Of a DNA stretch of 64,000 nucleotides, positions 4,920 through 64,000 are shown in pieces. The stretch lies in the NCBI GenBank assembly GCA_963514005.1, contig OY740797.1:14074001-14138000 (forward strand), written 5' to 3'. The position numbers and the translations under genes were made by a program. A model generated the notes under the pieces. It had not been told where the DNA came from. It saw only the letters and a list, made by a program, of their open reading frames with translations, and made no database searches. This DNA is from Raja brachyura. Taxonomy: Eukaryota. How positions within the stretch are numbered: position 1 is the stretch's first letter; each line of letters starts with the position of its first letter.

Positions 4920-5106
4920 CGTTTGTAGGATGGAACTGCAAATGCTGGTTTACACTGAAGATTGACACAAAATGCTGGAGTAACTCAGTGGGACAGGCGG
5001 CATCTCTGGATAGAAGGAATGGGTGACGTTTCAGGTCGAGACCCTTCTTCAGACTGAGACTCCAGAGGTAATGCCTGTCCCACTGAGTTACTCCAGCATT
5101 TTCTGC
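4920..5106. mobile_element. Penelope-like unit, inverted dimer, in the probable 3'UTR
   Basis: Arms 4968-5010 and 5061-5102 are reverse complementary. Hammerhead-like core on the minus strand at ~5024-5052. TSD ccatctaga at 4911-4919 and 5107-5115. Confidence 0.75.
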
Positions 5107-5641
5107 CCATCTAGAAGTGCAAATGTGAACCTTGAATGAGGACAGGATCAAAATGAGTTGGGAAGCCCTTATCTTCTAATTATTTGATGCCACTCACTAT
5201 CCAGTTTTGTTTCTGGGTAAGTCGCCAGCAGGTAAACAATACCCAGAGGATTGTACCTTTTTGTGGTGAAATATTTATTGAATGCTGGTAACTTAGGCAG
5301 AAAATATCTGCTGGAGCCCAAGTTTCAAAGGGACATTTTGAGCACTTAGGCTGAACCTCAATTTCCCCTCTAAATCCATTACCCAGAATGAGTTTGACTA
5401 TCAACTTTAGTGAACCCAATCCAAATGATTTATGTTCCATACATGATTCCATCCAACAATATGCAAAGACAAGACTCAGGCTTATCATAATAATTAAAAG
5501 TATTTGTAACATTTTGGAGCTTGCCACAAATTAAGGAATACAAAAATATTTTCTGTATTTTTTATTTATTCAGTTACTGAAGTGTCTGAATGCTTAGGCA
5601 CCAAATTGTGTTTCCTCTGTATTTAAGTTGTTTTATACTTC

Positions 5642-5778
5642 AGAGTAGTCACAAGGAACTGTAGATGCTAGAATATGGCATAGAGCACAAAATACTGGAG
5701 TAACTCAGCAAGTCAAGCAGCATCTCTGGAGGACATGGACAGGCGATGTCTTGGGTCGGGACCCATTCTTCAGACCAA
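5642..5778 (-). mobile_element. Short Penelope-like unit inserted immediately after the FHOD1 stop
   Basis: Same family consensus; 14-bp TSD ttgttttatacttc at 5628-5641 and 5779-5792. Confidence 0.8.
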
Positions 5779-5783
5779 TTGTT

Positions 5784-5866
5784 TTATACTTCTACTTCTG
5801 ATGTTTTAGACAAACCCAATGCTTGGACCACGTCAGGGGTCAAACCACTTTTCAAAGTTCTTCGTA
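5784..5866 (-). CDS. FHOD1: FHOD1-like formin, last coding exon: (L)RRTLKSGLTPDVVQALGLSKTSEVEV-stop
   Basis: Minus strand ctctttaattgcag|TA CGA AGA ACT TTG...GAA GTA TAA. Phase 1 fits the upstream donor (T|TA = Leu). Resembles the FHOD1 C-terminus LRRTLKSGL..VQALGLSK..EV as I recall it. Too short for the ORF track. Confidence 0.93.
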
Positions 5867-6333
5867 CTGCAATTAAAGAGAAATCAATATTAGTATAGGT
5901 AAGCCAAACACTTCTGCCTATTTTACACGTTACCTGAGCTCAGGTGCAACTGGCTTGAAACTCTGTCCAGTTCCAAATGGGACACATATAGAAATGACAA
6001 CTGTGACTTTTGTGGGAGATATTATCATTCATACTGTCTTGGGAAAACTAGAAAAAAATGTTTCATCCTCAGAGCTGACCTTCACCAGTTAAGAAAACAT
6101 GTATCTTCCGTCACTCAAGAGCTATTTAAAAATTTGGGGGGGAAAAAACAGGTATGTTTCATATGTGTAATACCCTTATGATCTTCAGCTGAGAACTCTA
6201 TACAACCTCATGCATGTAGAGAAGACATTTTGATTCTAGTTATTGATTCCATCTCGCTTCCTAATTACTACCTGAAGCTGACCCGTTAATAACTTTAGTT
6301 GCCATTTGCAATCTGAACTGAACTTTCAATTCA

Positions 6334-6428
6334 AGTCTGAAGAAGGGTCTTGATCCGAAACGTCACCCATTCCTTCCCTCCACAGATGCTGCCTGGTCTG
6401 CTGAGTTCCTCTAGCATTTTGTGTCTAC
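6334..6428 (+). mobile_element. Short Penelope-like unit with hammerhead-like core
   Basis: gtCTGAAGAagggtcttgatccGAAACGTCaccc, followed by the family tail (agatgctgcc...ctgagtt...agcattttgtgtct). Confidence 0.7.
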
Positions 6429-60135: not shown

Positions 60136-61884
60136 ATTCTGTTTTGTAAACCGTCGAGTGGAAGAGGTTTCTCGATTATAATTTGCCCATTAAATACTTT
60201 TTTTCAGTATGTCAAAAATTAATGTCAAGACTAAATACTTGATTTTCCACACAGTGTGTGACGCATGGACTCGTTCCACAGCATGAAGTCACAGAGCTTC
60301 AAAGTCTTCACGTAGTCACTCACGTGACTCCGAAGTAAAATAGTAAAATTAAATGAGAACTTACCAGTTTGAAGTTTGATCTTTATTTTATGAGGAGTAA
60401 CGATGAGCAATTACGCGCCCACCGCTCCCAACCCCCCTCATAAAACATAACTGGTAGTTCTAGTTCTCGAATCTTACTATTATCAGTTCGCCAACTGTTA
60501 TCTGTGACTTCACACCGCTGCTTCGAAGATTGACGCACATGCGGCTGACGGCCTTCTTCACGTAATCGCTCATTGTTACTCCTCATAAAATAAAGATCAA
60601 ACTTCAAACTGGGAAGTTCTCATTTAATCTTACTATTTCTTGCCACACTAATCTGCCGAAGCAATTAGCTAAAGCATTTTGGGGATACAAAGATGTAAGT
60701 ATGGTACCAGAATTTACGTAGAACTAGGTAATTTATTTTAGCAAACTGCACGAGATAGTCTTTTTTTTTGTTTAAATCTTGATTTCAACCCCGTTGTAAT
60801 GTTTTTAATGTAAACCTTGAGGTCTGCAGAAAAGGGTATTCAAAAATAAAAGCTGAAAATGCAGAATGTATCTTATTATACATCACCTAGACTAATTACA
60901 GAGACACAAGAAACTGCAGGTGCAGGAATCTTGAACAAAACACAAGGCGCTGGTGGAACTCAGTGAGTCCGATAAGCATCTGTCGAGGACATGGACATGC
61001 AATGTTTTAGATCGGGACCCTTCTTCACACTAATAAGGGCAGAGGGTTGAAAGGGTTGAGAGGTGGTGGCAGAACAAATCCTGGCAAATGATAAGTGGAC
61101 ACGGGTGAGGGGGGCTTGATTAGCAGATGGGTTACATAATTACATGCGGTTGCACACTTTAAAGGTATAGAAATTTGTAAAATAATTTCCATATCGAAGC
61201 TCTTTTGAACATTCTACTTCCTAACATCTTATATTTGAACTTCCTTTTAAATAACAGTTCTGGCTTTTAGCTATATGGATAATTAATTCTATGGATGTTT
61301 TAAGACATTAAGAGTTTGTACAAAAATTATAAAGATTACATATCTTGTCTCTAACAAATATAAATTACTATAGAGCTTGTACTTAGGCTTTGTTTATCCA
61401 TCCAGAAATTAAGTCACCAGATCTTAAAAACTGGAACTGTAGTACTTCCAGGTTTTCATATTTGTTCTATCCACCTACTAACAATTAGGATAACTTTTGT
61501 CTTTCAGTAATCCTCTGTGTAAGACCCGTATCAGTTTGTTACTGTGCTGTACAATGCTTGAATGGTTCTGGTTGTAAAAATAATCTCACTGTAAACAAGG
61601 GTCAAAGCCAAGTGCCAATGATACATCTGAACAACCTGCTGAAAAGGTTCACTTTTAAAGTGAGTGTTGATAGGAATTGATTATAATTCTGCCAGTATCC
61701 ATCTATCATCCTCTGTGTACAATGTCCATTATTGTTAATCTCAATTAAATCCTTCAAACTGTGTATGCAAATTGTAGCCAAGATTAAAAACAGGACTGAA
61801 TGGGTAAACAACTTTTGAGACAATAGGGAAATTCCAAATTACCACAAGTGACTAATGATAAACTCATAATGTAGCTTTGCGTTG

Positions 61885-62260
61885 TCCCACCAAGGGTGTT
61901 TCTTCTTCACCCTGCTTACATGCAGCAGATGGTACAGAAGCTTGAAAGTAGTCACCGCCAGACCCAGGAACAGTTTCTTCCTCTCTGTTAGCAGGCTTCA
62001 GAGGAGTCCTTCCAGAAGCTAGGGTACTTACTGTCTGGTACACCTCTGCTCCATTGTGAACATAAGACCTTCTCTATGGAACAGTTGCGTTGCAATGCTG
62101 AGAACTATATCTTGTACTCTGTGTTCCCCTTTGCTCTCTATCTATTATACTTGTCTGATTTGATTGTACAGTATTTATGTATGGTTCATCTGATCTGTTT
62201 GGATAGCATGCAAAACAAAGCTTTACACTGTACTGCGGTAAACGAGACAATAATAAATCT
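61885..62260 (+). mobile_element. Rex1/Babar-like LINE 3' end
   Basis: FFTLL..SRWYRSLK..T.R.RNSFF.SV.RL, with tail agcatgcaaaacaaagctttacactgta...gacaataa. The same tail occurs near 28885, 42420 and 56790. Confidence 0.6.
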
Positions 62261-63051
62261 ACATCTACTTTGGGATTGGTTATTTCTTTAGATAAAGTAG
62301 CTTCAGCAAAGTCAAGTATGTATCCTTTCCAAATCATTCTCTGTCCAAAGTGGAATCCCCACACTGATTCTGCCACACATGCAAAATGCTTTAAGTTAAC
62401 ATGAAGGTGGCTGGCCATTTGATTCTGCAATGTTATTAAAAACAACAGAGGCAATCATGTGAGCTGCTTTGGCAAATTTCAACTTTTTTACTTCAGAGTT
62501 TAAGTGCCTCCACTTTGAAGTGCTTTTCTGCAGAATGGAGGTGCTTGGAATCACAATCACAATAATACTTTATTAGCCAAGTATGTTTTGCAACATACGA
62601 GGAATTTTATTTGCCAAGTCACTCGTACAAATAAACAGCAACAGAACACACAAAACACATTCTAACATAAACAGAGAGAAGTATGGCATTATTCTGAGCA
62701 ATCATACCCATGTTGTCTCAATTGGATCAGTTGGGAGTACCGACTTTTCATAGAGGTGATTATACATTTTATCCCGACACAAAAGAGATTTGGGCATCTA
62801 ATCGACACTGACACTTTAAGGTACACTAAACGTCTCCTGGGTCATGCAGATTAAATGCTTTTCTGAGGCCCGATCTGCCTCAAGAGAAAGATGTAAAATA
62901 TCTTCCCACTTCTCCAGTCAGTATTAAGCCTTCAACCAAGTCAAGACAAAAGTTGGCCTTTTATTTCACTAGTGCTTCTGGTCAATGGCTGCAACCTTCT
63001 TGCCATGATTTCTACGTTACTTTAACAACCACATATCAGGAGGATTTTATA

Positions 63052-63409
63052 AGTTCATAAGTTCTAGGGAGCAGAATTAGGCCATTTGGCCCATCTAGTC
63101 TAACCACCATTCAATCATGGCTGATCTATCTTTCCCTCTCAACCCCATTCTCCTGCCTTCTCCCCATAAACCCTGACACCCTTACTAATCAAGAATCTGT
63201 CAATCGCCTCCTTAAAAACATCCCTTGAATTGGCCTCCACAGTCGACTGTAGTAATGAATTCCACAGATTCACCACTCTCTAAATAAATTCTTCCTCAAT
63301 TCCTTTCTAAAGGTACGTCCTTTTATTTTGAGGCTATGCATCTGGTCTTGGACTCTCCCTCTAGTGGAAACATCCTCTCCACATTCACTCTATCTTGGCC
63401 TTTCACTAT
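63052..63409 (-). mobile_element. CR1-clade LINE 3' fragment
   Basis: Homologous to 49193-49585. Additional fragments near 1006-1203, 9383-9720, 10990-11310, 22150-22295, 39238-39453 and 45735-46030. Confidence 0.8.
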
Positions 63410-63476
63410 ATTTTGGTGCATCTTATCATGGTTCATATTTGTTACAACTAATCAATAAAAGTCTTGACTCGCTAAG

Positions 63477-63567
63477 GTAGACAAAAATGCAGGAGAAACT
63501 CAGCGGGTGCAGCAGCATCTATGGAGCAAAGGAAATAGACAACCTTTCGGGCCGAAACCATTCATCA
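63477..63567 (-). mobile_element. Short Penelope-like unit (CTGATGA variant)
   Basis: Minus strand gtCTGATGAatggtttcggcccGAAAggttgtc. TSD gactcgctaag at 63466-63476 and 63568-63578. Confidence 0.7.
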
Positions 63568-64000
63568 GACTCGCTAAGTTAACCACAGAATGAAATCAAT
63601 GGTACAAGGAGGGGGCTAATGCTAAGATATTGCAGCACAAGGCTGATTATAATAGAAAGATATTTTTCTATAAACTGCAAAGAATAACCCATAGAAATGG
63701 GTTAATACTTTACACCACTGGTTCCAATCATAATTTTCTACGTTCCAATTCTATAAAGTGTATGTTGGCTAAATACAACAGCTTTAGGCACATACCATGG
63801 TTTCAGCATGGTTTGGCACCAATGCAGTCTCCTAAAATGTATTTATTCTCAATGTCCGGACCATTACTCACATCTTCAAAACTTATTCACTACAAGTGTT
63901 ATGAATATTTGCTCCTTCCGAGCAGCTGCAAAACTAGTAACCATGATGTAAATGAAAACAGCATTGTTTTTTAAGTAATCTCTGCCTCAATGAAATTCAC

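What the first reader, a model, noticed from the sequence alone, without database searches (positions are those of the whole stretch)
4920..63578. Dispersed family of ~100-200-bp retroposed units carrying a minimal hammerhead-ribozyme core
Seen: more than 15 copies of one short repeat, at approximately 5024, 5745, 6337, 7760, 16385, 25855, 33741, 37152, 38220, 40560, 41150, 41665, 44078, 46974, 48560, 61000 and 63538. The best copies read CTGA(A/T)GA-A-GGGT(CTCG)ACCC-GAAAC-GTC, i.e. CUGAnGA / stem II / GAAA / GUC cleavage triplet, with stem III reduced to the self-complementary ACGT. Several have long variable TSDs (20, 15, 14, 11 and 9 bp). Established: Penelope-like elements and non-autonomous retrozymes carry such minimal type-I hammerheads, which cleave as dimers through a palindromic stem III. 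Inference: this is a very high-copy ribozyme-bearing Penelope-derived family in an elasmobranch genome. Many copies end within a few nt of the ribozyme core, so the core may define or process the retroposed RNA end.
Basis: partly seen in the sequence, partly recalled or inferred. Interest (0 to 1): 0.75.

Follow-up and report, generated by a model that had tools for sequence, protein, structure and literature searches.

The report
Hammerhead-headed Penelope end fragments in skate
In and around one gene of a skate-like fish lie 34 pieces of a short repeat that are likely truncated end copies of a Penelope-like jumping gene; they carry a known small self-cutting RNA motif, but many start just before the motif and none at its cut site, so the copied RNA was likely not cut.

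Summary
The repeat is real. All 17 named positions are copies; there are 34 pieces at 25 loci. The consensus fits the minimal type I hammerhead of Penelope-like elements (PLEs), but only 3 copies keep an intact core and helix I is only 2 bp in the young subfamilies.
The anatomy is that of PLE insertions: 9-20 bp target duplications, two alternative 3' ends about 35-40 nt apart, and head-to-head pairs in which exactly one arm has the tail (8 of 8). No RT/GIY-YIG partner was found, so PLE membership is inferred.
5' ends pile up 0-10 nt before the CUGA box (14 of 18 copies that reach it) and 0 of 33 lie at the cut site. Cleavage therefore does not make these ends. Public contigs show many relatives running on upstream, so this is a hot spot, not the element's boundary.
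Host gene: FHOD1, closest to a skate protein.
Verdict: a new, very abundant member of a known kind. The open point is why copying stops at the ribozyme's 5' edge.

The parts
46913..47007 (-). Best young solo copy, short 3' end, intact core (C3 47002, predicted cut after 46975); in a FHOD1 intron, same strand as the gene
   Evidence: 20-bp exact duplication 47013-47032 / 46896-46915
46975..47002 (-). Minimal type I hammerhead core: CUGAAGA, A9.1, 4-bp stem II, GAAA, palindromic ACGU in place of stem III, GUC; helix I only 2 bp
4922..5104 (.). Head-to-head pair: minus arm with intact core (C3 5052) and tail; plus arm 5060-5104 without tail
5648..5778 (-). Solo copy with tail, 14-16 bp duplication, starts 2 nt before C3
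6333..6428 (+). Solo copy, intact core (C3 6337), short 3' end
6871..7020 (.). Head-to-head pair joined at a GGATCC palindrome 5 nt 3' of the cut site; tail on plus arm only; 10-14 bp duplication
7714..7895 (.). Head-to-head pair, tail on plus arm only
12050..12144 (-). 5'-truncated copy (no core) with tail, 15-bp duplication, inserted in another repeat
14555..14617 (-). Old truncated copy
16287..16466 (.). Head-to-head pair joined at the GAAACGU segment; tail on minus arm only; long fold-back
17535..17700 (.). Old-subfamily head-to-head pair, tail on minus arm only
17789..17931 (.). Head-to-head pair 17826-17897 (minus) and 17908-17931 (plus; its tail runs on to about 17965)
25851..25944 (+). 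Solo copy of the GGGU-UUCG-GCCC stem II subfamily, short end
27590..27677 (+). Old decayed copy
33670..33846 (-). Copy with about 75 nt of element sequence upstream of the core; two private core/stem II mutations
36935..37095 (-). Old-subfamily copy with tail; perfect 5-bp helix I (CAGUU/AACUG) around a decayed core
37095..37290 (.). Head-to-head pair, tail on plus arm only
38177..38347 (.). Copy with tail preceded by an inverted core-only fragment; 12-bp duplication with 1 mismatch
40415..40690 (-). Copy with about 110 nt upstream sequence, CUGA box deleted, interrupted, with tail
41147..41240 (+). Solo copy, starts at AGT before core, short end
41661..41762 (+). Solo copy, starts at core
44020..44112 (-). 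Solo copy, 9-bp duplication
48478..48674 (.). Head-to-head pair, tail on minus arm only
54900..54960 (-). Old copy, 3' part interrupted by another repeat
60900..61120 (-). Copy with about 90 nt pyrimidine-rich upstream sequence and tail
63479..63572 (-). Solo copy, CUGAUGA core decayed, 11-bp duplication overlapping the AGTC at its 5' end
5787..48869 (-). Host gene FHOD1, 14 matched stretches (residues 441-1366 of the best hit)

Best explanation
These 34 pieces share one end module with a minimal hammerhead motif, two alternative 3' ends and long target duplications, and are likely dead 5'-truncated copies laid down by the reverse transcriptase and endonuclease of a Penelope-like element from RNA that likely had not been cut by the ribozyme. 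Proposed steps: (1) The PLE protein nicks both strands of AT-rich DNA 9-20 bp apart (duplications shown; enzyme inferred). (2) Reverse transcription starts inside the RNA at one of two sites, about 60 and about 100 nt 3' of the cut site, giving short-end or tailed copies (ends shown; initiation inferred from the Anolis Poseidon element). (3) When both nicks are extended, one from each site, the two cDNAs join head to head, so exactly one arm carries the tail (pattern shown, 8 of 8; mechanism inferred). (4) Copying passes through the uncut hammerhead and most often stops 0-10 nt before CUGA, mostly at AGT (shown). My preferred cause is that the template RNA begins there, at an initiator-like YCAGT, so short copies are run-off cDNAs from the 5' pLTR (inferred, about 35%); the alternatives are a protein/structure roadblock with AGT microhomology (about 35%), splice-related stops (about 15%) and ascertainment (about 15%). 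(5) The ribozyme is likely silent alone and would need a dimer partner and the element's protein.
For: Core equals the published PLE minimal hammerhead consensus. The family majority in four public runs restores the two private mutations of the 33690 copy in 95-99% and 98-99% of depth, so the consensus core is intact. Tail on exactly one arm in 8 of 8 two-armed pairs (0.004 if independent at 50%), the described PLE arrangement (PMC8557442; PMC3846280). Two RT start sites downstream of the hammerhead make the tail; both strands are cut and extended; unprocessed RNA is the main template; the hammerhead cuts only with protein (PMC11167929). 3' loose ends genome-wide are mixed and A/T-rich (agreement 0.37-0.40). 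14 of 18 copies reaching C3 stop in -10..+1 against 0.14 expected from the stop rate in +2..+28 (p 2e-9); with only the 10 fixed by a duplication or an inverted junction, p 4e-5. 0 of 33 ends at the cut. Sense-strand solo copies are not depleted in the FHOD1 span (10 sense, 6 antisense, counted and assuming the gene runs on past 48869).
Against: No RT or GIY-YIG ORF in 193 window frames of >=70 aa, no genome held, and six collection scans were empty, so the partner is unproven. Contig depth 10-60 nt upstream of the core is still 0.29-0.55 of peak core depth in run X1, more than the 4 of 18 seen in the window, so the hot spot may be weaker genome-wide. End positions were read by eye. Five of 33 ends lie 3-8 nt 3' of the cut (+31..+36) and could come from cleaved, trimmed templates. 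Hammerhead helices show no covariation above shuffles (84/500) and the alignment fold is empty. The run guessed to be RNA shows no extra depth downstream of AGT relative to DNA runs, though contigs cannot show starts. PMC3846280 explains head-to-head pairs differently, by self-priming on an antisense template.
Confidence: 0.75

Rival explanations
1. The units are an independent non-autonomous family (retrozyme or SINE-like) that is itself transcribed and re-copied, its 5' end being a true element boundary.
For: Sharp 5' hot spot at AGT across several subfamilies; very high abundance (23,803-29,654 contigs laid per DNA-like run); some contig joints link the short 3' end to the CUGA region, most simply head-to-tail (table 5c; the kind of joint is not stated); non-LTR retrozymes related to pLTRs were reported in one chondrichthyan (bioRxiv 2026.07.22.740005).
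Against: No tandem of two intact cores in the window; 4 copies and many contigs extend upstream, with loose ends continuing beyond 33844; no end at the cut site, as self-processed monomers would give.
Confidence: 0.15
2. [quoted passage not shown]
For: Intact consensus core; 5-bp helix I in one old copy (36973); 5 of 33 ends at +31..+36; related motifs cleave weakly as dimers (PMC4209133) or with protein.
Against: 26 of 33 pieces include sequence 5' of the cut site, which a cleaved template cannot supply; 2-bp helix I; stem II probability about 0 in most copies folded.
Confidence: 0.07
3. The family is the 3' end of a non-PLE LINE or an ordinary SINE and the hammerhead likeness is chance.
For: No coding partner found; no Rfam hammerhead match; no covariation; core not clearly more conserved than the 3' block among window copies.
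Against: Exact fit to the PLE consensus, including N9.1, G10.1-C11.1 and the palindrome; no poly(A) or microsatellite tail; both arms of inverted pairs carry the 3' region, with the tail on one side only.
Confidence: 0.03

Closest known systems
Insertion units of endonuclease-positive Penelope-like elements: pLTR, optional 30-40 bp tail, adjacent inverted 5'-truncated copy (PMC8557442; PMC3846280)
   Same: Heavy 5' truncation, head-to-head inverted arms, tail on one arm only, target duplications (8-10 bp in Adineta), hammerhead in the pLTR.
   Different: Here only the last 45-270 nt are seen, at about one locus per 2.6 kb; duplications reach 20 bp; 5' ends cluster just before the CUGA box; ORF not found.
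Minimal type I hammerheads of metazoan PLEs (Cervera and de la Pena 2014, PMC4209133)
   Same: CUGANGAH, G10.1-C11.1, stem II, GAAA, palindromic 15.2-16.2, NUH; mostly dispersed single motifs; thousands per genome in coelacanth and Xenopus.
   Different: No cartilaginous fish among their 56 motifs; helix I only 2 bp in the young subfamilies (2 bp also in D. virilis and Culex, mostly 3-5 bp elsewhere); stem II short (4 bp).
Poseidon element of Anolis carolinensis, PAc (PMC11167929)
   Same: Hammerhead upstream of two RT start sites whose spacing is the tail; AT-rich targets; uncut RNA as template.
   Different: The PAc ORF starts in stem II; no start codon there in the young subfamilies here. 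Clade (Poseidon or Neptune) not determined.
Animal non-LTR retrozymes (bioRxiv 10.64898/2026.07.22.740005; PMC7761336)
   Same: Non-coding, type I hammerhead, PLE-related; reported in one chondrichthyan genome.
   Different: Defined by tandem units each with a complete hammerhead; the window holds solo and inverted copies only.

Membership tests
EN+ Penelope-like element (fragment of) | ORF with PLE reverse transcriptase and GIY-YIG endonuclease linked to the module | tested here: inconclusive
   None in the window; no genome; six scans empty; two in-frame database hits have no Pfam domain. Absence is expected for truncated copies.
EN+ Penelope-like element (fragment of) | Optional 30-40 bp tail, often at one end only | tested here: met
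   Two 3' ends about 35-40 nt apart; 8 of 8 pairs tailed on one arm
EN+ Penelope-like element (fragment of) | Adjacent inverted 5'-truncated copy | tested here: met
   9 of 25 loci are inverted pairs
EN+ Penelope-like element (fragment of) | Target-site duplication | tested here: met
   9-20 bp at 8 of 24 regions scanned
EN+ Penelope-like element (fragment of) | Partial tandem (pLTR-ORF-pLTR) | tested here: inconclusive
   None in the window; contig joints suggest head-to-tail joins but their kind is not stated
PLE minimal type I hammerhead | CUGANGA-N, stem II with G10.1-C11.1, GAAA, palindrome, NUH | tested here: met
   3 window copies (one with G-U at 10.1-11.1); family majority; published consensus
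PLE minimal type I hammerhead | Helix I closing the core | tested here: inconclusive
   2 bp in young copies, third pair formed in 5 of 16; 5 bp in one old copy (36973)
PLE minimal type I hammerhead | Covariation of helices | tested here: not met
   Covariation reached by 84 of 500 shuffles; neutrally decayed copies give low power
PLE minimal type I hammerhead | Self-cleavage as dimer or with protein | not testable with these tools
   Needs an assay
Rfam hammerhead families | Covariance-model match | tested here: not met
   No hammerhead among 16 matches at E<=10
Non-LTR retrozyme | Tandem units, at least two with a complete hammerhead | tested here: not met
   Window only; genome-wide arrays not excluded
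Non-LTR retrozyme | Circular RNA intermediate | not testable with these tools
   Only contigs were offered
LINE 3' end or SINE | Single 3' end with poly(A) or simple-repeat tail | tested here: not met
   Two discrete ends and no repeat tail

The most novel reading that the evidence does not exclude
The element's RNA starts at the initiator-like YCAGT one to three bases before the hammerhead core, so the short copies are complete run-off cDNAs made from the 5' pLTR. Each would then carry its own start site and both RT start sites and could be re-copied: a 90-130 nt Pol II 'SINE' of order 10^5-10^6 copies whose hammerhead has lost helix I and serves as a promoter or protein-binding module rather than a cutter. 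Insertion ends would then map PLE transcription starts in any vertebrate genome.
Probability: 0.2. Interest if true: 0.6.

Novelty: new member of a known kind. Interest (0 to 1): 0.3.

Why it matters
Mostly it annotates an abundant but ordinary class of debris: about 5.5% of this window. It adds skates to the list of PLE minimal-hammerhead carriers; I found no paper describing this family in 8 searches, but Repbase/Dfam and Lunse et al. 2017 could not be consulted. The useful part is mechanistic. The role of PLE hammerheads is described as unknown (PMC7761336; PMC8557442), and a family this abundant gives a genome-scale record of where reverse transcription starts and stops relative to the ribozyme. 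In this window the record says that templates were uncut and that copying stops at the ribozyme's 5' edge, which one skate assembly could test on many thousands of insertions.

Tried and rejected
Whole genome: not held. Rfam: only microRNA-type hits to the 16324/16382 fold-back, all below gathering score; no hammerhead. Pattern scans of viral, genome and metagenome collections with core and 3'-block motifs: 0 hits in 6 scans. Pfam on 193 window frames: FH2, one tyrosine recombinase, no RT/GIY-YIG. Protein search with the open frame through the unit: 2 hits among 5 candidates, both without domains, read as spurious frames.
'Off-switch' hairpin (GUCUG with YAGAU, GAAGG with CCUUC) hiding the CUGA box: it is the minimum-energy fold of the best copy and pairs in 79% of cells with covariation 5/500. 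But I derived it from these sequences, the tool warns that related sequences reach this level by chance, and shuffling the 3' part hides the box as well in 16, 41 and 60 of 200 trials: kept as a hint only.
cDNA snap-back as the cause of the hot spot: gain only -0.6 to -4.4 kcal/mol near C3 in five copies, no sharp peak: rejected.
Spliced copies with a shared first exon: bases 5' of AGT differ between copies: rejected. A 3' splice site next to the core remains possible: the D. virilis intron ends at 491 and its C3 is at 496.
Summed contig depth at the core (3.9-4.4 million against 5-8 on unique flank) is not a copy number according to the tool; used only as an order-of-magnitude hint.
Lunse 2017 and Arkhipova 2017 were not held.

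
Full report
Observation. All 17 named positions are copies of one family. A profile of 9 window copies gave 35 hits at E<=1 against 0-1 in each of 10 shuffles and 0 in the reversed window. I dropped 1 hit inside a host exon, leaving 34 pieces at 25 loci, about 5.5% of the window. 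Target duplications of 9-20 bp were found at 8 of 24 regions scanned.

The motif. On the ribozyme strand the unit reads AGU, CUGAAGA, A, a 4-bp stem II, GAAA, CGUC. This is the consensus printed for 56 metazoan PLE minimal hammerheads, none from a cartilaginous fish (PMC4209133 supplement). Only 3 window copies keep the strict core (0.01 per shuffle). Contigs of four public runs laid on the 33690 copy (23,803, 24,674, 29,654 and 2,609 laid) restore its two private changes in 95-99% of depth. The only other core variant at >=8% is C17 to U (4-14%, a CpG), so the family consensus core is intact. One variable position in 28 core bases against six in 70 upstream bases is too few to call the core more conserved. 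Helix I is only 2 bp in young subfamilies, while one old copy (36973) has a perfect 5-bp helix I. Forcing the hammerhead fold costs 6.2-10.3 kcal/mol, no more than in shuffled controls. No covariation above shuffles and no Rfam match.

Anatomy. Copies end at one of two 3' points about 35-40 nt apart. Nine of 25 loci are head-to-head pairs. In the 8 where both arms carry the 3' region, exactly one arm has the tail (one tailless arm, 7714, stops before the short end; the ninth pair, 38178, has a core-only inverted arm and was left out of this count). An inverted truncated copy plus a 30-40 bp tail at one end is the described PLE arrangement (PMC8557442 passages; PMC3846280 passages). In the one PLE reconstituted in vitro, both target strands are cut and extended, RT starts at two internal sites whose spacing is the tail, the hammerhead cuts only with protein, and uncut RNA is the main template (PMC11167929, parts 1-2 of 4). 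Two primings from the two start sites would explain the 8-of-8 pattern (my inference); Arkhipova et al. 2013 propose antisense self-priming instead.

5' ends. Reading ends by eye for 33 of 34 pieces (38178 left out): 7 end 3' of the cut, 8 inside the core, 14 within -10..+1 of C3, and 4 more than 20 nt upstream; 0 lie at the cut and 5 lie at +31..+36. The pile-up is far above the stop rate within the core (p 2e-9; p 4e-5 using only the 10 ends fixed by a duplication or an inverted junction). So cleavage does not create the common end. Nor is it the element's boundary: contig depth upstream stays at 0.29-0.55 of the core peak in X1 and loose ends continue past 33844. In that of the 12 joint rows shown (of 77) have one side at 33761-33769; these are selected rows of unstated kind and only a hint. 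Candidate causes: an RNA start at an initiator-like YCAGT (the initiator consensus is recalled, not from a call; rotifer pLTRs have an initiator-like TCACT; in D. virilis the start lies about 125 nt further upstream, which counts against); a roadblock with AGT microhomology (seen at 63477); or a splice-related stop. None could be tested, because only contigs were available.

Partner. No RT or GIY-YIG was found in the window, in six collection scans or through the open frame. No genome is held. Membership therefore rests on anatomy.

Known context. PLE expansion in whale-shark introns is reported (10.1101/443036 passages). Retrozymes were found in one chondrichthyan, species not named in the text I read; 8 of 9 tested Xenopus dimers did not cleave (bioRxiv 2026.07.22.740005, parts 1-3 of 5; its supplements are closed and may list this family). 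PMC4209133: parts 1-2 of 4 and supplement parts 1-2 of 3 read. PMC2377424 and PMC7761336: passages. The PMC11167929 supplementary figure on insertion ends held no readable text and may bear on the hot spot. Lunse 2017: title only, from a reference list. Eight searches showed no description of this skate family or of the hot spot. Three earlier AI notes on another shark-like genome reach the same reading, one with the same hot spot; they are unchecked and not independent support.

Verdict. Real, abundant, and a new member of a known kind; interest 0.3. The stop at the ribozyme's 5' edge is the one open lead.

Noticed in passing
window:59737-60135 (+), with inverted arms 60338-60415 / 60561-60638: Tyrosine-recombinase frame (PF00589, E 9e-07) next to a 78-nt, 95% inverted repeat; likely the remains of a DIRS-like retrotransposon (family name recalled).
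   Followed up: no
window:12592-13625 and 42585-43638: Long, young inverted copy pair 30 kb apart (415 nt at 92%, 184 nt at 85%, further arms), both in FHOD1 introns; family not identified.
   Followed up: no
window:16287-16466: This head-to-head pair forms a long fold-back that scores on several microRNA models below their gathering scores (best E 6e-08); such pairs could feed small-RNA or editing pathways.
   Followed up: partly
window:14122-14400, 21777-21944, 25238-25418, 37517-37812, 49914-50025, 56169-56474 and others: A second abundant SINE-like family (D7, D9, D12, D17, D19); the 12086 copy is inserted in one member and the 54900 copy is interrupted by one.
   Followed up: no
window:39239-39412, 45731-45991, 49208-49468, 63055-63315, 34334-34768, 20085-20546: Further repeated ends and an ORF2-like fragment, likely CR1-type LINE debris (family name recalled); not joined to the hammerhead units.
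   Followed up: partly
window:57700-58520: G+C-rich stretch with overlapping long open frames and short internal repeats, no Pfam match.
   Followed up: no
window:19420-19900: About 480 nt of low-complexity pyrimidine/purine tract; no match to the family's upstream sequence.
   Followed up: yes
window:46913-47007: The intact-core copy lies on the gene's strand about 130 nt downstream of a FHOD1 exon; efficient cleavage there would cut the pre-mRNA.
   Followed up: partly
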